From Alphaproteobacteria bacterium RIFCSPLOWO2_01_FULL_40_26 (lineage in GTDB: Bacteria > Pseudomonadota > Alphaproteobacteria > Rickettsiales > UBA1997), in the NCBI GenBank assembly GCA_001767955.1, contig MEMO01000031.1, positions 50,647 through 109,039 of the forward strand: 58,393 nt of DNA. The letters run 5' to 3'. Shown one piece after another: positions 2,480 through 47,667 of the stretch. The translations under genes and the position numbers were made by a program. Numbering within the stretch: position 1 is the stretch's first letter; each line of letters starts with the position of its first letter. The notes below the pieces were generated by a model that was not told the origin of the DNA, ran no database searches, and was given only the letters and a program-made list of their open reading frames with translations.

Positions 2480-2536
2480 TTTTGTTTTATTTTATTTTTA
2501 GTGATTATCCCTTCGAGCCAAGTAATCCTAGGAATG

Positions 2537-2600
2537 GACCCCGTCATGAAGACGGGGTGACAACTCACTCTCGATGTCACCCCGTCTTCATGACGGGGTC
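2537..2600. repeat. Paired TGYCAY-hairpin module (gaccccgtcatgaagacggggtgaca ... tgtcaccccgtcttcatgacggggtc)
   Basis: Two inverted copies of a 26-nt unit. Each unit is itself a 7-bp hairpin flanked by TGACA/TGTCA. It lies between the lysS start and the mtaB-like stop. Confidence 0.85.
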
Positions 2601-2604
2601 TATT

Positions 2605-4032
2605 TCACAAATTTTTACCACTTTTACTTCCTTGCCATCCCTGCGAAAGCGGGGATCCAATCATAAAATTTCCTTCAACTCCTAAAGCCTTGATTTTCAA
2701 GATGTCGCCGGATTTTAAATTTTTAATTTCTCCGGAAATTTTCACATCCAGGAAATTTTCTGCCTTGCCGATTCCATCTTTTTCCACAAGCACTTTGAAA
2801 GTTTTTTCGACCTGTTTTTTAAGAAATTTTTGTAATTCCGCCTGCCCTGCTTCACGCAATATCCGCGCACGTTCTTTGACTATTTTACCATTAATTTGTG
2901 GCATTTTTGCGGCTGGTGTTCCATCGCGTTTTGAGTAAGGAAAAATATGGGTAAAAATTATTCCGGCTTGCTTGATTAGCTTCACAGAATTTTCAAACAT
3001 TTCATCAGTTTCAGTGGGAAATCCGGCGATGATATCAGCGCCGAAAGTCATATCTGACCTGATTTGGCGAGCTTTCTTGCAAAACTCCAAAACTTGCACG
3101 CAATTATGCCTGCGCTTCATTCTTTTTAAAATTATATCATCACCCGATTGCACACTCAAATGCAGATATGGCATGAAGCGCGGTTCGTTTTTGAGAATAT
3201 CAAAAAATTCTTCGTCAATTTCTGCAACATCGATTGAGGAAAGACGCAGGCGCGGCAGTTCTGGCACAAGTTTTAGCAGGCGTTTGATCATTTGCGACAG
3301 CGTGATTTTTATTGCCAAATCTTCGCCATAACTCGAAATGTCAACTCCAGTTAAAACAATTTCATGATGCCCAGCTGCAACCATTTTTTTTGCTTGCAAA
3401 ACAATCTCACCAAAGCTTACCGAACGACTATTTCCGCGGCCAAACGGGATCACACAAAAAGTGCAGCGATGATTGCAACCATTTTGAATTTCAAGAAAAG
3501 CGCGGGTTTTATTTTCAAAATAAGAGATGAGTTGCGGCGCAGTATCACTGACTGACATTATGTCATTAACCTTGATTTTGGCGGTTTCAAATTCATTTAG
3601 AAAAATTTGCGAGGATTTTTTTGCTTCAGAAAAAATGCGGTCTTTATGAACAATTTCATTGTTAGTGGTAGGTAAGTAGTAAGTGGTAAGGTTGTTGCTC
3701 TTACCACTTACCACTGACCACTTATCACTAAAATCATAACTCTCTGCTCTCGTCTTCTCAACATTGCCAACTACCAAATCCACCTCTTCCATCTTCGCAT
3801 ATTTCTGCGGATCGATTTGGGCAGCGCAACCTGTTATCACAATTTTTGCTTCAGGATTATTTTTTCGTGCTTTGCGTACAGCTTGGCACAACTGACGCTC
3901 AGCTTCAGAAGTAACGGCACAAGAATTGAAAATGATAAGATTTTTCTGAGCGGTTTTTTTTAGAACTTCTTTTATGCCTTCAGATTCATAGGCATTTAAG
4001 CGACATCCAAATGTGATTACCTGATTAGACAC
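2605..4032 (-). CDS. mtaB: Radical-SAM methylthiotransferase, MtaB-like (MiaB/RimO family)
   Basis: 475 aa. N-terminal MTTase motif ITFGCRLNAYESE, radical SAM box GCNHRCTFCVIP and a C-terminal TRAM-like region. GTG start. It contains an in-frame hairpin repeat, and its last ~17 codons are repeat-derived. Confidence 0.8.
   Translation of the reverse strand: MSNQVITFGCRLNAYESEGIKEVLKKTAQKNLIIFNSCAVTSEAERQLCQAVRKARKNNPEAKIVITGCAAQIDPQKYAKMEEVDLVVGNVEKTRAESYDFSDKWSVVSGKSNNLTTYYLPTTNNEIVHKDRIFSEAKKSSQIFLNEFETAKIKVNDIMSVSDTAPQLISYFENKTRAFLEIQNGCNHRCTFCVIPFGRGNSRSVSFGEIVLQAKKMVAAGHHEIVLTGVDISSYGEDLAIKITLSQMIKRLLKLVPELPRLRLSSIDVAEIDEEFFDILKNEPRFMPYLHLSVQSGDDIILKRMKRRHNCVQVLEFCKKARQIRSDMTFGADIIAGFPTETDEMFENSVKLIKQAGIIFTHIFPYSKRDGTPAAKMPQINGKIVKERARILREAGQAELQKFLKKQVEKTFKVLVEKDGIGKAENFLDVKISGEIKNLKSGDILKIKALGVEGNFMIGSPLSQGWQGSKSGKNL
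2633..2658. repeat. Single TGYCAY-hairpin unit (tgccatccctgcgaaagcggggatcc) inside the 3' end of the mtaB-like ORF
   Basis: Stem atcccc/ggggat-type with a GAAA loop. It has the same architecture as the units at 2575-2600, 42019-42044 and 55081-55106, and it encodes the tail ..GSPLSQGWQGS. Confidence 0.7.
3661..3730. repeat. Heptad hairpin, GGTAAGT type, in frame within the mtaB-like gene
   Basis: Left arm gttagtggtaggtaagtagtaagtggtaagg, loop ttgttgct, right arm cttaccacttaccactgaccacttatcactaa. It is translated on the minus strand as DKWSVVSGKSNNLTTYYLPTTN, between the MTTase and radical-SAM domains. Confidence 0.85.
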
Positions 4033-4185
4033 TGTTAGCTAATTATTTTTTTCGGGATTTTTCGTTAATTTTTAGCGACTTTTTTGAAGAATTTCGCCGC
4101 TGTATTAAACATACTGCAAGAAATTCTTCAAAAAAATGAGCAAAAATTTGCGGAAAAGCGCGGAAAAAATAATTAGCTAACAGTG
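4030..4185. repeat. Family A palindromic element (~156 bp), copy A1
   Basis: Outer inverted repeat cactgttagctaattatttttt / aaaaaataattagctaacagtg, inner inverted repeat gaagaatttc / gaaattcttc, apex gccgctgtattaaacatactgc. It fills the gap between the BON-gene stop (4187) and the mtaB-like start (4032). Confidence 0.9.
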
Positions 4186-4186
4186 T

Positions 4187-4819
4187 CTACCCGTGGCGGC
4201 GTCTGCTGTCATCTTCTAAAATCACATGGTTAACAACTTGATCGACACCGCGAATCCTTGATACGATTGATAAAACGCGACGCATCTCAAATTCATTATC
4301 GGCAACTCCAAGCAGATAAACTGTGCCATTCACTGTTGTTACCTGATAGTTGATCGAGGTAATATCGCGGGCAAAAAGTAATTTGGTTTCGACCTGCGCA
4401 GTGATTATGTAATCAAGAAAAACCGCAGAAAAATCATTGCGGCCTCCGGTATTATTTTTTGTGTTATTTTTGTCCTGATTTTCATTGGAGCGTGAATGGA
4501 TTTCGTTAATAACTTCCTTTACGCCATCAACCTTCCAGACTAATTCCTGCGCCAGAACTGACTTGCTTTCATCACGCACATTTCCGGTTAAAAGCACTCT
4601 GCCCTCATTCACTGTGATATCAACACAATTGCCGGGATTTTTCAGGCCATTGGCGATAAATTTTGTGCCAAGCTTGGTTGAAATCGCTATGTCTTTGCCA
4701 GTATCACTTAAACTTTTTTCACGCACTACAAGACCGGCTCCGGCAACTGACCCAACCACAATCGTTTCAACGCAGGAAGTTAACAAAAAAACCAAAGAAA
4801 AAATTACAAAAATTCTCAT
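4187..4819 (-). CDS. BON-domain (OsmY-like) lipoprotein
   Basis: 210 aa. Lipobox LLTSC, and two BON-like segments (ITVNEGRVLLTGNVRDE.. and VTTVNGTVYLLGVADNE..). Confidence 0.7.
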   Translation of the reverse strand: MRIFVIFSLVFLLTSCVETIVVGSVAGAGLVVREKSLSDTGKDIAISTKLGTKFIANGLKNPGNCVDITVNEGRVLLTGNVRDESKSVLAQELVWKVDGVKEVINEIHSRSNENQDKNNTKNNTGGRNDFSAVFLDYIITAQVETKLLFARDITSINYQVTTVNGTVYLLGVADNEFEMRRVLSIVSRIRGVDQVVNHVILEDDSRRRHG

Positions 4820-7012: not shown

Positions 7013-8407
7013 ATGTCAAAACAGTCAGTAAGCAAAATATGGGGTGGAAGATTTGATGCCGAACCTTCATCGCTGATGCAGGAAATCAATCAATCAATCA
7101 GTTTTGATTATAAGCTTTACAAGCAGGATATTCGTGGCTCAAAAGCACATGCTAAAATGCTGGAAAAAGTTGGGATTTTAAGCGCAAGTGAAGCAAAAAA
7201 AATTTGTGATGGCTTGAATAAAATCGAAAAGGAAATTGTGGCAGAAAAGTTCAATTTCAAAATCGAGCTTGAAGATATTCACATGAACATCGAATCACGC
7301 CTAAAGGAAATTATCGGTGATACAGCCGACAAGCTGCACACAGCGCGGTCGCGCAATGACCAAGTTGCGCTCGATTTGCGTCTTTTTGTGCGCGATGAAG
7401 TTGACGAAATTTTAAAATTATTAAAAGATCTGCAAAAAACTTTGGTGAAAAAGGCCGAAGAAAATCTCGATGTCATCATGCCCGGATTCACGCATTTGCA
7501 GGTGGCACAACCAGTTTTATTTTCGCATCATCTGCTGGCCTATTTTGAAATGTTCAAACGCGATATTTCACGACTTTACGATTTAAGAAAAAGAATGAAT
7601 GAATGTCCGCTCGGCGCTTGCGCACTGGCTGGAACTTCATTTCCAATTGATCGCAAAATGACAGCAAAAGAACTTGGTTTCGATGCGCCAACCGCCAATT
7701 CCATGGATTCAGTTTCAAACCGCGATTTCGCCATCGAATTTCTTTTTTGCCTGTCATTGATTGCGCTAAATCTTTCGCGCTTTGCTGAAGAAATTGTGAT
7801 GTGGATGAGCAAAGGATTTAAATTTATCACCTTGTCCGACGCCTTTACTTCCGGCTCTTCAATCATGCCACAGAAAAAAAATCCCGATGCCGCTGAATTG
7901 GTGCGCGGAAAATCGGGAAGAATTTTTGGCGCATTATTTGCATTGCAAACCACAATCAAATCGCTTCCTCTCACCTATTCAAAAGACATGCAGGAAGATA
8001 AAGAACCGATTTTTGACGCAACAGAAAATTCCAAACTTTGCCTACGCACAATGGCGGGGATGATTGCCGATATGAAGGTGAACAAAAAACAAATGCTGGA
8101 AATGGCCGGCACTGATTATTCCTGCGCCACTGATCTGGCTGATTGGTTGGTTAAAAATCTGAAAATTCCTTTTCGTAAAGCACATCACATCACCGGATCA
8201 ATCGTGAAAATGGCTGAAAATAAAGAATTGGAACTTCATGAATTAAAACTGACTGATCTGCAAAAAATCGAGAAAAAAATCTCGAAAAAAATTTTTGACG
8301 CTCTTTTAGTTGAAAATTCTATCAATAGCAGAACCTCATTTGGCGGCACCGCGCAACATCAGGTAAAATTACAAATCACAGCAGCAAAGGAATTTTTACA
8401 AAGATGA
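7013..8407 (+). CDS. argH: Argininosuccinate lyase
   Basis: 464 aa. WGGRFDAEPS.., fumarate-lyase signature GSSIMPQKKNPD. Confidence 0.95.
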   Translation: MSKQSVSKIWGGRFDAEPSSLMQEINQSISFDYKLYKQDIRGSKAHAKMLEKVGILSASEAKKICDGLNKIEKEIVAEKFNFKIELEDIHMNIESRLKEIIGDTADKLHTARSRNDQVALDLRLFVRDEVDEILKLLKDLQKTLVKKAEENLDVIMPGFTHLQVAQPVLFSHHLLAYFEMFKRDISRLYDLRKRMNECPLGACALAGTSFPIDRKMTAKELGFDAPTANSMDSVSNRDFAIEFLFCLSLIALNLSRFAEEIVMWMSKGFKFITLSDAFTSGSSIMPQKKNPDAAELVRGKSGRIFGALFALQTTIKSLPLTYSKDMQEDKEPIFDATENSKLCLRTMAGMIADMKVNKKQMLEMAGTDYSCATDLADWLVKNLKIPFRKAHHITGSIVKMAENKELELHELKLTDLQKIEKKISKKIFDALLVENSINSRTSFGGTAQHQVKLQITAAKEFLQR

Positions 8408-8433
8408 AAAAAGGCCATGTCGCAAATCAACTT

Positions 8434-8601
8434 TCTAGAGCCTGTTTTCAAACCCACCACATTTCGCTTTTGCCCAAATTTTGGCTCGTTTTTTGGCAAA
8501 ATTTTTTGCAGTATGCCAGATACAGCGGCAAAATTTTGCCAAAAAGTCGCACAAAATTTGGGCAAAATCGAAACGCGCTGGGTTTGAAAACAGGCTCTAA
8601 A
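8434..8601. repeat. Family A palindromic element (~168 bp), copy A2 (apex in opposite orientation)
   Basis: tctagagcctgttttcaaaccc ... gggtttgaaaacaggctctaaa, with inner ttggcaaaatttt / aaaattttgccaa and apex gcagtatgccagatacagcggc. It is nearly identical in design to 31714-31879. Confidence 0.9.
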
Positions 8602-8643
8602 AAATCTGAACCCTTGATTTACAAGGACTCCTCGAATTTAAAA

Positions 8644-8799
8644 ATGGTAAGAAATAGAAATTTGCGACAGTCGGGAAAAGGTTTTTGTTTTATTTTATTA
8701 TCACTTTTTCTTTTGAACTCCTGCGGCAGAAAAGGCGCTCTTGAATATCCAGGCGAACGTAAGCAGCCTAAATTTGAGAATGTGATTGATGAGAGTTAG
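8644..8799 (+). CDS. Small lipoprotein, LptM/YifL-like
   Basis: 51 aa. ..FILLSLFLLNSCGRKGALEYPGE.. resembles the L.GCG.KGPLY.P signature of the small lipoprotein commonly found downstream of argH. The 80 upstream codons of the track ORF (8404-8643) are a translation of repeat A2. Confidence 0.5.
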   Translation: MVRNRNLRQSGKGFCFILLSLFLLNSCGRKGALEYPGERKQPKFENVIDES

Positions 8800-15283: not shown

Positions 15284-16189
15284 TTAATTTTTTGTCATTG
15301 ATGCCACTTCGGCGGCGAAATCATTTTCCTTTTTTTCAATGCCTTCTCCAAGAACAAAAAGTTTGAAAGCGGAAATTTTAGTTTCGCCATTTTCTTTGGA
15401 AAATTGTGCCAACAAATCTTTGATTTTAACTTTGTCATCCATGACAAAATTTTGCTCCAGCAACACCACTTCTTCGTGGTATTTTCTGATGCGTCCCTGA
15501 ATCATTTTTTCGATGATATTTTCTGGCTTGCCGGAAGCGCGCGCCTGCTCTTTAAAAATTTCGCTTTCACGCGCCAATTTCGCCGGATCAACATTTTCAA
15601 CCGAGAGAGCATCAGGCTTTGCCGCTGCGATATGCATCGCTATTTGTTTGCCAAATTCCTGTAATTTTTCTTGCGCAACTTCTTTCACAGCTGGCGATTC
15701 AAGCGCAACCAAAACGGCAATTTTGCCCATATTTTGAGCTATTGCATTGTGAATGTAGTTAACAATCACGCCATTGGAAACCGCAAGAGAAGCAATGCGG
15801 CGGATATTGATGTTTTCTCCAATAACGCCAATTTGAGCTTTTACCTCTTGATCTTTTTCTGCCTGAAATTTGGCAATATCATCGCCAAAAGCCAAAGCCT
15901 CTACGGAAATTTTAGTAACAAACTCCTGAAATTTTTGATTGCGCGCCACAAAATCGGTTTCGGAATTAACCTCAATTACAGCTGCTTTACCGCCTTCAAT
16001 TGCCACGGCGACAACACCTTCAGAAGTCACGCGTCCTGATTTTTTTGCTGCTGATGAAAGGCCTTTTTTACGCAGCCAGTCAACGGCTTGCTCAAAATCA
16101 CCGCCGGTTTCAGCCAGGGCTTTATTGCAATCAGCAATACCACAGCCGGTGGTTTCGCGTAGTTTTTTTATAAGAGATAGATTCGACAT
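15284..16189 (-). CDS. tsf: Elongation factor Ts
   Basis: 301 aa. [19 protein letters not shown]-like N-terminus and rpsB-tsf synteny. Confidence 0.93.
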
Positions 16190-16196
16190 GATTTAA

Positions 16197-16356
16197 GAAA
16201 CTGTTTATAATCTTTTTTAACCCCAGATTTTACCCTGTTTTTGCTTATTTTTTGACAAAATTACTCACCGTATTTCCAGATACGCTTCGTAATTTTGTCA
16301 AAAAAGCGCTAAAAACATGCTAAAATCTGGGGTTAAAAAAGATCATAAACAGTTTC
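16197..16356. repeat. Family A palindromic element (~160 bp), copy A4, occupying the rpsB-tsf intercistronic gap
   Basis: gaaactgtttataatcttttttaaccccagatttta ... taaaatctggggttaaaaaagatcataaacagtttc. Inner gacaaaattac / gtaattttgtc, apex ccgtatttccagatacg. The stems differ from A1-A3 but the architecture is the same. Confidence 0.9.
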
Positions 16357-17372
16357 TAAGATTTTGCAGCCTTTTTTGTCGGCTTTTTTGTTATCACTTT
16401 TACTGCCGGTTTTTCTTTTTCAGACTTTTTAGCGACTGATTTTTTGGCAGGTTTTTTATCTTCAGATTTTGCAATGGATTTTTTGACCGGCTTTTCTTCT
16501 TTTTGTTCTTCTTTTTGTTCTTCTTTTTGTTCTTCTTGTTGCTCTTCTTGTTCTTCATCTTCTTTTTTCTCTTCTTGTTGTTTCAGCGGTTTTTTTGCTT
16601 CTTCCTTTTTCAGATTACCAGCATTTGGCAATTCACCTTCACCAAATTTGCTAATATCAATACCAGACAAAGCCATGTTCTCCTTGATTCCGGCAATTAT
16701 GGCATCGGAAATCAGTCGACAAAAAATCTTGATTGATTTTGCTGAATCGTCATTTCCTGGAATCGGAAAAGTGATTCCATCAGGATTGCAATTGGTATCA
16801 AGAATGGCCATGATTGGAACATTAAGCTTTTTTGCTTCAGCAATGGCGATGGCTTCTTTGTTGGTGTCAATGACAAAAACCAAATCAGGATAGCCACCCA
16901 TATTTTTAATACCGCCTAGAGCCTGTTCGAGTTTTAGCCTTTGTCTTTCGAGCACCAACTTTTCTTTTTTGTTATAGCCAACTTCAGTGTCAGACAATTG
17001 TTCTTCGATTTTCTTCAGGGTTTTGATTGATTGCGAAACGGTTTTCCAGTTGGTGAGCATGCCTCCAAGCCAGCGGAAATTGACATAATATTGCCCACAT
17101 CTTTTCGCTGCTTCGGCAACGGCTTCAACAGCTTGTTTCTTGGTTGCAACAAAGAGAATACGGCCATTATTCTTGGCGATTTCTTTGACAATTTTTAACG
17201 CGTTATGAAGAAGATTTGCGGTTTTGTTGAGATCGATGATGCTGATACCGTTGCGGTTAGCATGGACATATTTCGCCATTTTGGGATTGCGACGCATGGT
17301 CTTGTGACCAAAATGCACTCCTGCTTCAAGCAATTGACGAATGGAAAAATTTGGAAGTTCGGTTTTTGACAT
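16356..17372 (-). CDS. rpsB: 30S ribosomal protein S2 with a ~85-aa Lys/Glu/Ala-rich C-terminal extension
   Basis: The N-terminal 250 aa are canonical S2 (LLEAGVHFGH.., WLGGMLTNW). The tail is ..EEQEEQQEEQKEEQKEEQKEEKPVKKSIAKSEDKKPAKKSVAKK.. and is encoded partly by a 12-nt tandem repeat (16494-16556). Confidence 0.93.
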   Translation of the reverse strand: MSKTELPNFSIRQLLEAGVHFGHKTMRRNPKMAKYVHANRNGISIIDLNKTANLLHNALKIVKEIAKNNGRILFVATKKQAVEAVAEAAKRCGQYYVNFRWLGGMLTNWKTVSQSIKTLKKIEEQLSDTEVGYNKKEKLVLERQRLKLEQALGGIKNMGGYPDLVFVIDTNKEAIAIAEAKKLNVPIMAILDTNCNPDGITFPIPGNDDSAKSIKIFCRLISDAIIAGIKENMALSGIDISKFGEGELPNAGNLKKEEAKKPLKQQEEKKEDEEQEEQQEEQKEEQKEEQKEEKPVKKSIAKSEDKKPAKKSVAKKSEKEKPAVKVITKKPTKKAAKS

Positions 17373-34624: not shown

Positions 34625-34663
34625 GAGTTTCCTTGTTTAACCCAAATAATACACATTCTATCA

Positions 34664-35012
34664 ACGCCAATTCCGGATAAGAACCTGCCTAAATTTTTCT
34701 CGATCTACTCCCCTCTCCCCTTGTGGGAGAGGGTTGGGGTGAGGGGTAAATTTTAAAACATCAATTCAGAAATTTTGGAAAGAATCGATTAAAAAAGTTA
34801 ATACCCCTCACCCTAACCCTCTCCCACAAGGGGAGAGGGAACTAATCGAGATTGGCTTGATGCCTTATCCGGAATTGGCGTTATCAAAAATTTACCCCTC
34901 ACCCCAACCATCAGACACAAGGAGGAAGGGAAAACCGAGGTTACGACGCCAAAAACGTGTGTTTAGCACGTCTTCTTCCCTCTTGCGTACGAGGCTGGTG
35001 GTGGGTAACAAT
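34664..35012. repeat. Large palindromic repeats of the ccctctccccttgtgggagaggg / ggggtgaggggt type (family F)
   Basis: 34664-34881 is a ~218-bp inverted repeat (acgccaattccggataag...cttatccggaattggcgt) with internal hairpins. A second, more degenerate inverted pair lies at about 34886-35012. Its translation gives the spurious PLPLWERVGVRG peptide. Confidence 0.85.
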
Positions 35013-41933: not shown

Positions 41934-42079
41934 GGTTGTTATCAAAAATATTGTGTCTCTAAAAATAGATCCTGAAACAAGTTCAGGATGACATGTTTTG
42001 GAACCATCTTTCCCTAATTGTCATCCTGAACTTGTTTCAGGATCTATTTTTTCTGGACACAAAATTTTAAGAACAATCC
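41934..42079. repeat. Family B nested palindromic element (~146 bp), copy B1
   Basis: ggttgttatcaaaaatattgtgtc..gatcctgaaacaagttcaggatgaca..tgtcatcctgaacttgtttcaggatc..gacacaaaattttaagaacaatcc. Nearly identical to 54996-55140. Confidence 0.92.
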
Positions 42080-46740: not shown

Positions 46741-47622
46741 CTAACATGCTTCCAAATCTAATACCATGTTCATCAACAACGCTGCATAGCCGTTTGTTTC
46801 TTCACCAAAATTTTCCTTCGAGCCAATCAAATCAAGAATCATGAATTTGAGATGATAATTTTGCGCCAATTTTAGCGCAGAGTTTTTTTCATCCAGAGTT
46901 TCACCAAAAATACATTTTATTTTTCCCGCTTCAGCCATGTCGGCAAATTCGCGCAAATCTTTGATGGCAAGCTCTTTGGTATGATCATTGGTCATGATTT
47001 TTGCCGGTTTAATATCAAAATAATCTTCAAAATATTGATAGCCATCATGATAAAAAACCGCCTGTGAGACATTGATTTTAGCCAGTTTTTCAGCAATTAT
47101 TGTTTCGGTTTTGGCGATTTCTTTTTTAAATTTTTCAAAATTATTGCGGAATTTTTGGCAATTTTTTTGATCATTTTCACAAAGCCTTGCCGTCATAAAT
47201 TCAGCAATTTTTATGCCATTTTGCGGATTCAACCAGAGATGGGAATCAAGTTGTTTTGAATTTTGTCTGCGCGGCAAAAGCTTGATACCGCTTATTTGCG
47301 AAAGGGCATAAGATTTCTTTTCCAGATGCAAATTTTTGATCAATTTGGGAAAATTTTTTTCCAGAGAATCATCAACATAAAAAACCAAATCAGCCTTGGC
47401 AAAAGCAGTAATATCATTTTTTTTTAGCTGATAATTATGCTCGGAAACATTGGGAGAAATGATTAAAATGCTGTTGTTTTTATCTGCACTAATCGCCAAA
47501 AGGATTTGATAAATTGGGTTGATTGAAGCGATATTTGCAGCATTTGCATGATTAAAGATAAACAAAAAAAACAGAATTATCCCAACAATTTTTCCGTGCT
47601 TCGTGCTTCGTGCATCGTGCAT
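46741..47622 (-). CDS. znuA: Metal (Zn/Mn) ABC transporter substrate-binding protein, ZnuA/TroA family
   Basis: The start is moved to ATG 47622 (MHDARSTKHGKIVGIILFFLFIFNHANA signal). It has ..DSHLWLNP.. and ..VFYHDGYQYF.. motifs and lies divergent to an ABC ATPase. The first residues are encoded by the heptad repeat. Confidence 0.7.
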   Translation of the reverse strand: MHDARSTKHGKIVGIILFFLFIFNHANAANIASINPIYQILLAISADKNNSILIISPNVSEHNYQLKKNDITAFAKADLVFYVDDSLEKNFPKLIKNLHLEKKSYALSQISGIKLLPRRQNSKQLDSHLWLNPQNGIKIAEFMTARLCENDQKNCQKFRNNFEKFKKEIAKTETIIAEKLAKINVSQAVFYHDGYQYFEDYFDIKPAKIMTNDHTKELAIKDLREFADMAEAGKIKCIFGETLDEKNSALKLAQNYHLKFMILDLIGSKENFGEETNGYAALLMNMVLDLEAC

Positions 47623-47667
47623 CGTTATTGAGTTTACGAAGCACGAAGCACGAAGCACGAAGCACGA
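47594..47667. repeat. Heptad hairpin, AGCACGA type, in the znuA<>znuC divergent region
   Basis: ccgtgcttcgtgcttcgtgcatcgtgcatcg - ttattgagttta - cgaagcacgaagcacgaagcacgaagcacga. The left arm overlaps the first codons of the znuA-like gene. Confidence 0.92.

What the first reader, a model, noticed from the sequence alone, without database searches (positions are those of the whole stretch)
16197..16356. Family A ~160-bp palindromes: conserved apex, covarying stems, inserted flush between cistrons
There are four full copies (4030-4185, 8434-8601, 16197-16356, 31714-31879) and one half copy (27002-27072). They share one architecture: an outer ~20-35-bp inverted repeat, an inner ~10-13-bp inverted repeat and an apical mini-hairpin GTAT-N5/6-ATAC.

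The stems differ completely between copies while keeping their pairing. The inner stems are gaagaatttc/gaaattcttc, ttggcaaaatttt/aaaattttgccaa and gacaaaattac/gtaattttgtc.

This copy fills the rpsB-tsf gap exactly. It touches the rpsB stop and ends 7 nt from the tsf start, so it must be transcribed inside a highly expressed ribosomal operon.

Covariation with a conserved apex argues for selection on structure. The structure could be an RNA processing or stability element, or a protein recognition hairpin for a REP/RAYT-like or MITE mobilising system. This argues against simple decay of one mobile sequence.
Basis: partly seen in the sequence, partly recalled or inferred. Interest (0 to 1): 0.65.

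Follow-up and report, generated by a model that had tools for sequence, protein, structure and literature searches.

The report
160-bp palindromic mini-transposon (IS5-type MITE)
The "Family A palindromes" are copies of a small, non-coding jumping-DNA element (a MITE with IS5-family ends) that prefers T-A/T-A sites such as TAA stop codons, so one copy sits exactly between rpsB and tsf; it is a new family of a well-known kind of element.

Summary
The window holds four full copies, each exactly 160 bp (4028-4187, 8438-8597, 16197-16356, 31717-31876), and one half copy (26994-27071).

They are MITEs. They have 20-24-bp terminal inverted repeats (GA[GA]CCTGT..ATCTTTT), 3-bp TNA or 2-bp TA target duplications, and tens of copies. 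Identical copies lie at different loci, and orthologous sites in relatives are empty.

The same termini and TNA flanks bound 830-870-bp IS5-family insertion sequences (IS427-like, two frameshifted ORFs, NCBIfam NF033580) in other bacteria. One partial, degenerate copy lies in a relative of the host.

The rpsB-tsf copy is lineage-specific. It inserted into the rpsB TAA stop and rebuilt a stop codon (TA + terminal G). Stop-codon hits recur at 16 of 54 testable element sides.

Covariation between the arms is real and strong: 95.7% paired, and 40 of 66 pairs carry double changes. It is Watson-Crick only, and orientation relative to the incoming gene is unbiased, so it cannot by itself indicate an RNA function.

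The REP/RAYT reading is not supported. An RNA role could not be tested because no RNA data exist. No cognate transposase was found in the host lineage itself.

This is a new member of a known kind, of modest interest.

The parts
16197..16356 (+). Full 160-bp MITE copy (subfamily g7) between rpsB and tsf. The model orientation is on the + strand. It is transcribed as its reverse complement with the minus-strand operon.
16194..16196 (.). Left copy of the 3-bp target-site duplication (TAA).
16357..16359 (.). Right copy of the target-site duplication (TAA). Its TA plus element base 16356 forms the present rpsB stop codon TAG on the minus strand.
16197..16220 (+). Left terminal inverted repeat (GAAACTGTTTATAATCTTTTTTAA). 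The family consensus is GARCCTGTYYWRRATCTTTT.
16333..16356 (-). Right terminal inverted repeat.
16270..16283 (+). Apex GTAT-TTCCAG-ATAC. TAT/ATA is invariant in the family, and the outer pair covaries G-C/A-T.
16356..17372 (-). rpsB (Ribosomal_S2, 338 aa with a charged C-terminal tail). The third base of its stop codon is the terminal base of the element.
15284..16189 (-). tsf (EF-Ts). Its ATG lies 7 nt from the element (4 nt plus the 3-nt duplication). No Shine-Dalgarno motif lies upstream.
4028..4187 (+). Full 160-bp copy (subfamily g12, a singleton) with TA at both flanks. It inserted into the TAA stop of the BON-domain gene, which is now TAG at 4187-4189. It cut off the first 8 codons of the overlapping miaB-like gene. 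An in-frame GTG lies inside the terminal repeat at 4030-4032.
8438..8597 (+). Full 160-bp copy (subfamily g11) with TA flanks, lying between the convergent argH and a pilin-like gene.
31717..31876 (-). Full 160-bp copy (subfamily g11, opposite orientation) with TA flanks, lying between the divergent ispH and the next gene. The same exact sequence occurs with 4 different flanks in the data set.
26994..27071 (-). Half copy (g7-like), running from the apex to one terminus and followed by TTA. The last codons and the TGA stop (27001-27003) of the 940-aa ORF 24181-27003 lie inside it.

Best explanation
Family A is a family of 160-bp non-autonomous DNA transposons (MITEs).

Shown:
- Each copy ends in 20-24-bp inverted repeats (GA[GA]CCTGT..ATCTTTT, or variants).
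- Each copy is flanked by a duplicated TNA (3 bp) or TA (2 bp, in a YTAR context).
- The family is present in tens of copies in the source community and in related uncultured Rickettsiales-labelled bacteria, at non-orthologous sites.
- Identical copies occur at different loci, and empty orthologous sites exist.
- The same termini and TNA flanks bound complete 830-870-bp insertion sequences. These encode a two-ORF, frameshift-type IS5-family DDE transposase of the IS427-group type.

Inferred:
- Such a transposase moves Family A in trans.
- The preferred target T(A/T)A includes the TAA stop codon. Insertions into coding sequence are purged, so survivors are often flush with the end of a gene. 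There the element's terminal G (or the duplicated TAA itself) restores a stop.
- This is how the copy at 16197-16356 came to fill the rpsB-tsf gap. The pre-insertion sequence reconstructs as ...AAA TCT TAA ATC ATG.

The end-to-end dyad symmetry is real and maintained by paired changes in both arms. I attribute it to DNA-level processes in a mobile element:
- both ends must fit one transposase;
- subfamilies exchange central blocks;
- hairpin-templated correction of quasi-palindromes acts on the arms;
- lineages whose copies fold or bend compactly may be favoured.

I do not attribute it to a host RNA function. Co-transcription of a roughly 80-bp stem inside rpsB-tsf is a consequence, and its effects are unknown.
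For: Boundaries and target duplications:
- 105 delimited copies, 88 of them exactly 160 bp.
- Flanks TAA/TAA 17, TTA/TTA 16, TGA/TGA 3. The remainder are largely YTA...TAR, that is a TA duplication (59 of 105 share TA).

Copy number and mobility:
- Element k-mers are at 393-580x (single contigs), up to about 2000x summed, against 23x for the flanks in the source metagenomes.
- 159 places were found in 2.4 Mb of loci, at 82 distinct sites.
- 5 exact sequences occur at 2-4 different flanks.
- 27 of 46 partial copies lie at contig ends.

Empty sites:
- None of 33 relatives has Family A in the rpsB-tsf gap, and 10 have gaps of only 9-34 nt.
- The BON/miaB junction is empty in L007.

Autonomous relatives:
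- The terminal pattern hits more than 116 loci in many phyla.
- Ten-plus full elements of 828-868 bp carry the same 20-24-nt termini and TNA flanks.
- The fused ORFs match NF033580 IS5-family transposase at 245 bits over full length, plus DDE_Tnp_1 and DUF4096.
- A partial copy lies in L229, a contig with 57% aa identity to a window gene.
- The IS427 group in Alphaproteobacteria is 832-865 bp, makes a 2-bp duplication and has two frameshifted ORFs (PMC3281130).

Stop-codon targeting:
- Of 54 element sides with an incoming ORF of at least 100 codons, 11 have the stop formed at TA|G and 5 have the stop equal to the duplication.

Symmetry:
- 95.7% of cells are paired, against 79.3% in shuffles (0 of 500 as high) and at most 52.5% when partners are slid. 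40 of 66 pairs carry double changes.
- Within subfamilies there are 87 Watson-Crick double changes against 4 non-Watson-Crick.
- Orientation relative to the incoming gene is 24 versus 30.
Against: - No cognate transposase gene was found in the 58-kb window. None was found in about 2.4 Mb of loci from relatives, except terminal fragments in L229, L188, L150 and L156. The L229 copy has an in-frame stop and looks degenerate.
- No close copy is present in the groundwater runs.
- Only the 20-24-nt termini are shared with the full-length insertion sequences. The interior is unrelated.
- Three of the four terminal-repeat types (GACACTGTTAGC.., GAGCCTGTCTTAAAACCC.., GAGCCTGTATTCAAATTC..) were not matched to any full-length element.
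- A DDE transposase needs only the ends. It does not explain the interior palindromy, the fixed 160-bp length or the phased A/T tracts.
- No read or contig with an empty rpsB-tsf site was seen in the source population. Current activity there is therefore not shown.
Confidence: 0.8

Rival explanations
1. Family A is primarily a host cis-acting RNA element. It would be a long hairpin selected for mRNA processing, mRNA stability, or translational coupling between cistrons such as rpsB and tsf.
For: - It forms a very stable hairpin in the transcribed sense.
- Two of the four full window copies lie inside operons.
- The stem base brings the rpsB stop and the tsf start within a few nucleotides of each other (sequence).
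- There is precedent: Correia/NEMIS hairpins are RNase III targets, and ERIC affects mRNA stability (PMC2229807).
- Selection for folding in both orientations would also demand Watson-Crick pairs only. The rarity of G.U therefore does not exclude this reading.
Against: - The rpsB-tsf copy is absent from all 33 relatives examined.
- Copies also lie in convergent and divergent intergenic regions.
- There is no orientation bias.
- Target duplications, terminal repeats, identical copies at different loci and contig-end truncations show mobility.
- There is no Rfam family at gathering score.
- No RNA data exist.
Confidence: 0.1
2. Family A is a REP-like element mobilised as a single-stranded hairpin by a RAYT/IS200-type tyrosine (HUH) transposase.
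For: Only the palindromic shape and the conserved apex hairpin.
Against: - REPs are short and G+C-rich (PMC3184786, abstract) and, from general knowledge, lack terminal repeats and target duplications.
- Family A is 160 bp and AT-rich.
- It has 20-24-bp terminal repeats identical to those of DDE (IS5-family) elements, and 2-3-bp duplications.
Confidence: 0.02
3. Family A is a divergent member of the Rickettsia palindromic elements (RPE/WPE), inherited within Rickettsiales.
For: - The host's nearest relatives are labelled Rickettsiales.
- RPEs are palindromic repeats of 100-150 bp (105-146 bp) with terminal repeats, some with TA at the termini (PMC2229807).
Against: - Pattern scans with the Family A core and with its termini hit no bona fide Rickettsia or Wolbachia genome.
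- The RPE hallmark of in-frame insertion inside conserved ORFs is not seen in the window.
- The ATGAC motif typical of RPE-4/6/7 (PMC3767692) is not a feature of the family consensus.
- No RPE model or sequence was available for a direct alignment.
Confidence: 0.05
4. The subfamilies with a 2-bp TA duplication (g11, g12, g1, g2, g9, g10, which include three of the four window copies) are moved by a TA-specific IS630/Tc1-mariner-type transposase, not by an IS5-family enzyme.
For: - They make a TA duplication.
- RUP, a bacterial MITE with TA at its termini, is attributed to IS630-Spn1 (PMC2229807).
- No full-length element with these exact terminal variants was found.
Against: - Their termini begin with the same GAGCCTGT/GACACTGT motif as the TNA subfamilies.
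- Their interiors are homologous mosaics of the TNA subfamilies.
- IS427-group IS5 elements themselves make 2-bp duplications (PMC3281130).
- The YTAR context resembles IS5-family targets. This last point rests on my own knowledge and was not tested.
Confidence: 0.08

Closest known systems
Bacterial MITEs of the Correia/NEMIS, ERIC and RUP class
   Same: - Under 200 bp and non-coding.
- Terminal inverted repeats, and TA at the termini or a TA duplication.
- Many copies, mostly intergenic.
- They fold into one long stem-loop and are often co-transcribed with neighbouring genes (PMC2229807).
   Different: - No sequence similarity was found.
- Family A is palindromic over its whole length, has a strictly conserved length (88 of 105 copies are 160 bp), and shows strong arm-to-arm covariation across at least 12 subfamilies.
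- Its termini match an identifiable IS5-family insertion sequence.
- Its hosts are uncultured Rickettsiales-labelled bacteria from groundwater and lakes.
IS5 family, IS427 group insertion sequences (e.g. IS1248 and ISPpa2 of Paracoccus)
   Same: The full-length elements that share Family A's termini are 828-868 bp. They have two overlapping ORFs that fuse into an NF033580/DDE_Tnp_1 transposase, and they make 2-3-bp duplications at T(N)A (PMC3281130).
   Different: - Family A has no transposase.
- It shares only the terminal 20-24 nt.
- Assignment to the IS427 group rather than the IS1031 group rests on architecture, not on a phylogeny.
Tourist-like MITEs of plants (PIF/Harbinger superfamily, e.g. 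mPing)
   Same: They make a 3-bp TTA/TAA target duplication, are hairpin-prone small elements near genes, and use a transposase superfamily related to bacterial IS5. These points rest on my own knowledge and were not tested here.
   Different: Tourist-like MITEs are eukaryotic. There is no sequence relationship. The Rfam matches are far below gathering scores and reflect only hairpin shape.
Rickettsia palindromic elements (RPE)
   Same: Palindromic repeats of 100-150 bp in Rickettsiales with terminal inverted repeats.
   Different: - RPEs are known for in-frame insertion inside conserved genes and have no known transposase.
- Family A sits at gene ends, has clear target duplications, and has an identifiable insertion-sequence partner type.
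- Pattern scans with the Family A core and termini hit no true Rickettsia genome; no direct alignment with an RPE model was possible.

Membership tests
MITE (miniature inverted-repeat transposable element) | Small size and no transposase gene | tested here: met
   88 of 105 copies are 160 bp, and the range is 149-178 bp.
MITE (miniature inverted-repeat transposable element) | Terminal inverted repeats | tested here: met
   GA[GA]CCTGT...ACAGG[CT]TC and variants are present at both ends of all aligned copies.
MITE (miniature inverted-repeat transposable element) | Target-site duplication | tested here: met
   36 of 105 copies have identical 3-bp TNA flanks, and 59 of 105 share TA.
MITE (miniature inverted-repeat transposable element) | Multiple copies at unrelated loci, with occupied and empty orthologous sites | tested here: met
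   There are 82 distinct sites. Identical copies occur at up to 4 different flanks. The rpsB-tsf gap is empty of Family A in 33 relatives. The BON/miaB junction is empty in L007. Element depth is 17-80 times the flank depth.
MITE (miniature inverted-repeat transposable element) | Termini shared with an autonomous element that can supply transposase | tested here: met
   The same 20-24-nt termini and TNA flanks occur on 828-868-bp transposase-encoding insertion sequences.
MITE (miniature inverted-repeat transposable element) | Observed mobilisation | not testable with these tools
   This needs a transposition assay or time-series genomes.
IS5 family / IS427-group derivative | Duplication of 2-4 bp at T(N)A, and a partner of about 830-870 bp with two frameshifted ORFs | tested here: met
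   compared with PMC3281130.
IS5 family / IS427-group derivative | Cognate transposase present in the same genome or lineage | tested here: inconclusive
   None is in the window or in most loci. One partial, apparently degenerate copy lies in a relative (L229). A protein-guided scan found no further relative. Complete genomes were not available.
REP / RAYT system | A short G+C-rich stem-loop (PMC3184786). The 20-40-nt size, conserved 5' tetranucleotide and lack of terminal repeats and target duplication come from my own knowledge. | tested here: not met
   Family A is 160 bp, AT-rich, and has terminal repeats plus a duplication.
REP / RAYT system | An associated RAYT (Y1 HUH transposase) gene | not tested
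   Only 10 of the window's ORFs were scanned against Pfam.
Rickettsia palindromic elements (RPE) | Sequence membership in RPE families, and occurrence in Rickettsia or Wolbachia | tested here: inconclusive
   Core and terminal patterns hit no bona fide Rickettsia genome. No RPE model was available for a direct comparison.
Rickettsia palindromic elements (RPE) | In-frame insertion within conserved protein genes | tested here: not met
   Window copies lie at gene ends or in intergenic DNA. Across the data set, 13 of 54 incoming ORFs run a few codons into an element.
Curated structured RNA family (Rfam) | A match at the family's gathering score | tested here: not met
   The only match in the window is a tRNA. 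With a relaxed threshold only generic long-hairpin models (plant MIR families) match, at 26-57 bits against thresholds of 90-330.

The most novel reading that the evidence does not exclude
The full-length dyad symmetry, the fixed 160-bp length (about 15 helical turns) and the A/T tracts phased at 10.5-11 bp may be selected design features of a 'self-insulating' mini-transposon.

- As DNA, the curved symmetric body would bring the two ends together for an IS427-type transposase.
- As RNA, in either orientation, the element would fold out of the message. A stop codon and the next start codon (rpsB TAG and tsf AUG) would then stay a few nucleotides apart at the stem base, and operon expression would survive.
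- The two arms would be kept complementary in situ by hairpin-templated correction.
Probability: 0.2. Interest if true: 0.55.

Novelty: new member of a known kind. Interest (0 to 1): 0.3.

Why it matters
- For annotation: these 160-bp palindromes should be masked as MITEs, not called as RNA genes or regulatory hairpins. ORF callers are misled around them. Examples are the spurious ORF 8404-8799 through one copy, the altered miaB-like start, and the 940-aa ORF that ends inside the half copy.
- For biology: the family gives a clean bacterial example of a transposon whose target (TWA) coincides with the TAA stop codon and whose terminal base restores a stop. That explains the 'flush between cistrons' placement without invoking function.
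- For method: strong Watson-Crick covariation in a palindromic repeat is not evidence for a functional RNA.
- As an open question: the strict length, the phased A/T tracts and the concerted evolution of the two arms could be tested with a transposition assay.

Tried and rejected
- RNA evidence: no RNA run holds the locus, so processing and stability could not be examined.
- Empty-site search in the source metagenomes: contigs of four runs show the element in place and no joint that skips it.
- Transposase partner search:
  - tblastn of the IS5 ORFs against the window and all 333 loci gave only terminal fragments in L229, L188, L150 and L156.
  - Groundwater contigs laid on the L229 insertion sequence gave nothing beyond chance.
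  - The last genome scan, with the L229 OrfA read through its stop, returned only itself and distant hits in other phyla.
- Plasmid collection (blastn, distant mode): no match.
- Interior homology between Family A and the full-length insertion sequences: none beyond the 20-24-nt termini. The 'simple internal-deletion derivative of a sampled IS' reading was therefore rejected. A genuine deletion derivative of that kind does exist elsewhere (L161).
- Outward promoter or terminator in the element: one promoter-like match that is not conserved among copies, and no terminator-like site.
- In-situ compensation between orthologous copies: only 4 informative pairs and one mirrored double change. This is too few to decide.
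- The original RPE paper (PMC186582) is not held.
- An Infernal model and R-scape were not run. nhmmer plus count of structure pairs answered the question, and no phylogeny-aware covariation test is available here.

Full report
**1. Observation**

Their arms are 70-83 nt and 84-86% complementary. A profile of the four copies finds exactly these plus the half copy at about 26994-27071 and nothing else in 58 kb.

The rpsB-tsf copy folds at -98.3 kcal/mol as RNA in the transcribed sense (z = -12.9). As DNA it folds at -53.7 kcal/mol (z = -15.8).

The five sequences align as homologues. The stems are variations on one theme, not unrelated sequences.

Exact limits come from a comparison of 19, and later 105, copies. 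All four full copies are 160 bp: 4028-4187, 8438-8597, 16197-16356 and 31717-31876.

**2. Host and neighbours**

- The flanking genes are rpsB (16356-17372) and tsf (15284-16189), both on the minus strand.
- Other neighbours of copies are a BON-domain gene and a miaB-like gene, argH and a pilin-like gene, and ispH.
- The closest Tsf relatives (up to 82% aa identity) are uncultured freshwater, wastewater and groundwater MAGs. They are labelled Rickettsiales, or implausibly 'Rickettsia typhi' and 'Rhizobium'.
- The window itself is held by groundwater and soil metagenome runs. No RNA run holds it.

**3. It is a mobile element**

*Ends and duplications.* Copies end in GA[GA]CCTGT...ACAGG[CT]TC and are flanked by short direct repeats.
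- Of 105 delimited copies, 88 are exactly 160 bp.
- 36 have identical 3-bp flanks: TAA 17, TTA 16, TGA 3.
- The remainder are largely YTA...TAR, that is a TA duplication in a YTAR site; 59 of 105 share TA.

*Copy number.*
- In the source metagenomes the flanks have depth of about 23x. Exact element k-mers reach 393-580x, and all words at least 90% similar sum to 940-2080x.
- 159 places were found in 2.4 Mb of fetched loci, at 82 distinct sites.
- Five exact sequences occur at 2-4 different flanks, including the sequence of the window copy 31717-31876.
- 27 of 46 partial copies sit at contig ends, as repeats do.

*Empty sites.*
- None of 33 relatives has Family A between rpsB and tsf. Ten have gaps of only 9-34 nt. 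The others hold different small palindromes.
- The BON/miaB junction is uninterrupted in L007.

**4. Which transposon**

- A scan for the terminal 20-mer (GARCCTGTYYWRRATCTTTT) hit more than 116 loci in many phyla. Many hits lie at contig ends.
- Ten-plus of these are complete elements of 828-868 bp with the same 20-24-nt termini and TNA flanks. Each has two overlapping ORFs.
- The fused product matches NCBIfam NF033580 (IS5-family transposase) at 245 bits over its full length. It also matches Pfam DDE_Tnp_1 and DUF4096.
- This architecture is that of the IS427 group of the IS5 family in Alphaproteobacteria: 832-865 bp, mostly a 2-bp duplication, and frameshifted ORFs (PMC3281130).
- The same termini also bound other MITEs. 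These include 144-177-bp full palindromes in Clostridia and Gammaproteobacteria, and an ordinary deletion derivative in Parachlamydiales.
- Family A shares only the termini with these elements, not the interior.

In the host lineage I found only one partial copy, which has an in-frame stop. It lies at the end of contig L229, whose other genes resemble those of the window (57% aa identity) and of MITE-bearing contigs. No other copy turned up. Mobilisation in trans by an IS427-type transposase is therefore inferred, not shown.

**5. Why it is flush with the cistrons**

On the minus strand the junction reads ...GCA AAA TCT TAG|AAACTG...CAGTTTC|TTA AATC ATG.
- Removing the element and one copy of the duplication gives ...GCA AAA TCT TAA ATC ATG.
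- So the element entered the rpsB TAA stop, 3 nt upstream of the tsf start. The present stop TAG is TA of the duplication plus the element's terminal G.
- A relative (L043) ends rpsB with the same ...AAA TCT TAA.

The copy at 4028-4187 did the same to the BON-domain gene (TAA changed to TAG at 4187-4189).
- That stop lay inside the 5' end of the overlapping miaB-like gene, so the first 8 codons of that gene were cut off.
- An in-frame GTG inside the terminal repeat (4030-4032) is now the first possible start. Whether it is used is unknown.

Across 82 distinct sites, 54 element sides have an incoming ORF of at least 100 codons.
- In 11 the stop is formed exactly at the TA|G junction.
- In 5 the stop is the duplication itself.
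- In 13 the ORF runs into the element.

The flush placement therefore follows from the TWA target preference plus purging of disruptive insertions.

**6. Covariation**

On 71 distinct copies from 12 subfamilies (alignment A2):
- 95.7% of cells form standard pairs. This compares with 79.3% in column shuffles (0 of 500 as high) and 35-52% when partners are slid.
- 40 of 66 pairs carry changes on both sides, in 774 cells.

The collection pattern forced part of the inner stem. It did not force its two R/Y positions, which are complementary in 71 of 71 and 66 of 71 copies. It also did not force the outer 44 pairs or the apex.

Within subfamilies there are 87 Watson-Crick double changes, 4 non-Watson-Crick doubles and 98 single changes.

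Three further observations qualify it.
- The changes are nearly all Watson-Crick to Watson-Crick, including many A-T/T-A and G-C/C-G swaps. G.U is rare.
- Subfamilies are mosaics of outer and inner modules. Exchange of one contiguous central block swaps both arms at once.
- Orientation relative to the incoming gene is unbiased, 24 versus 30.

This is the signature of a DNA palindrome carried by a mobile element. It does not exclude selection for RNA folding, because an element that inserts in both orientations would need Watson-Crick pairs anyway.

Candidate causes, all inferred:
- both ends must fit one transposase;
- subfamilies exchange central blocks;
- template-switch 'correction' of quasi-palindromes acts during replication (established in E. 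coli genetics; cited from my own knowledge);
- lineages whose copies are least harmful are favoured.

One mirrored double change between orthologous copies (L311 versus L238) hints at in-situ correction, but only four such pairs were informative.

**7. Other anatomy**

- The columns invariant across all subfamilies are mostly T-tracts in the left arm and A-tracts in the right arm.
- Their spacing gives a sharp spectral peak at 10.5-11 bp, with z of about 16 against run-shuffled controls. The z is inflated by relatedness. This suggests intrinsically curved DNA.
- With the fixed 160-bp length (about 15 turns), curvature could help a short element synapse its ends. This is inference.
- Five of 19 internal partial copies, including the window's half copy, break within a few nucleotides of the dyad centre. 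That is compatible with hairpin or cruciform-stimulated deletion.

**8. Consequences for rpsB-tsf**

These are inferred only. The operon transcript must contain a stem of about 80 bp. The tsf AUG lies 7 nt from the stem base and has no Shine-Dalgarno motif.

Precedents exist for RNase III cleavage of Correia hairpins and for ERIC effects on mRNA stability (PMC2229807). No RNA data exist here.

**9. Comparison and verdict**

Family A meets every sequence-testable criterion of a bacterial MITE. Its termini and target duplications are those of IS5-family, IS427-type elements.
- It fails the REP/RAYT criteria.
- It shows no detectable relation to Rickettsia RPEs, although no RPE model was available.
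- It matches no Rfam family.

It is a new family of a known kind. Its notable features are the strict length, the whole-length symmetry with concerted arm evolution, and the stop-codon targeting.

Noticed in passing
window 41961-42051 and 55029-55107; L060/L061 rpsB-tsf gap; L021 6569-6656: There is a second, unrelated palindromic repeat family (arms AGATCCTGAAACAAGTTCAGGATGACA, 27-33 nt, 100% complementary). It occurs twice in the window. The same family fills the rpsB-tsf gap of two relatives.
   Followed up: partly
rpsB-tsf intergenic region in loci L038-L072: The gap is a hot spot. Only about 10 of 33 relatives have a short gap (9-34 nt). The rest carry hairpins or palindromes of 65-286 nt from several unrelated types, most of them immediately after the rpsB stop. 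Four of these have a TAG stop.
   Followed up: partly
window 4025-4035 and 4187-4215: The insertion at 4028-4187 separated the first 8 codons (ATG ACA GCA GAC GCC GCC ACG GGT) of the miaB-like gene from the rest. A GTG inside the element's terminal repeat (4030-4032) is in frame with the remaining gene.
   Followed up: partly
window 24181-27003 and 27085-30732: Two large ORFs (940 and 1215 aa) have no Pfam match. The first ends at a TGA inside the half MITE, so its C-terminus may have been altered.
   Followed up: no
window 8404-8799: A 131-aa ORF reads straight through the MITE copy 8438-8597, so that copy is open in one frame. It has no Pfam match and is probably not a gene.
   Followed up: no
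alignment A2 (71 copies), all window copies: A/T tracts are phased at 10.5-11 bp, and they are the most conserved columns of the family. This suggests intrinsic DNA curvature.
   Followed up: partly
window 26994-27071; L329 5853-5943; L312 954-1046; L239 7862-7945 and 10846-10929: Half copies recur and tend to break at the dyad centre (5 of 19 internal partial copies). Hairpin or cruciform-stimulated deletion would produce this.
   Followed up: partly
window 16150-16400: With a relaxed threshold the element's best Rfam matches are plant miRNA-precursor families (MIR821, MIR7996, MIR1435 and others). All are far below gathering score, so this is a generic long-hairpin resemblance only.
   Followed up: yes
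window 2533-2604, 34663-34930, 47595-47667, 56769-56855, 58132-58355: Further repeats lie here: a 30-nt-arm palindrome, a nested G+C-rich palindrome cluster (CCCCTCTCCCCTTGTGGGAGAGGG...), and short tandem or inverted heptamer-type repeats.
   Followed up: no
loci L005, L008, L010, L021, L023, L036, L037 (CAMDJN, CAMAXU) and L007, L026, L028 (CAYSUM, CAYUSO, CAYVKI): Public MAGs that carry Family A are titled 'Rickettsia typhi' or 'uncultured Rhizobium sp.'. Two of them (L007, L010) share about 77-81% nucleotide identity in genes with this 40% G+C window. The names look like mislabels.
   Followed up: no
window 16356-17372: RpsB is 338 aa. It has a long C-terminal tail rich in Glu, Gln and Lys (…EEKKEDEEQEEQQEEQKEEQ…KKPAKKSVAKK…) beyond the Ribosomal_S2 domain.
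   Followed up: no
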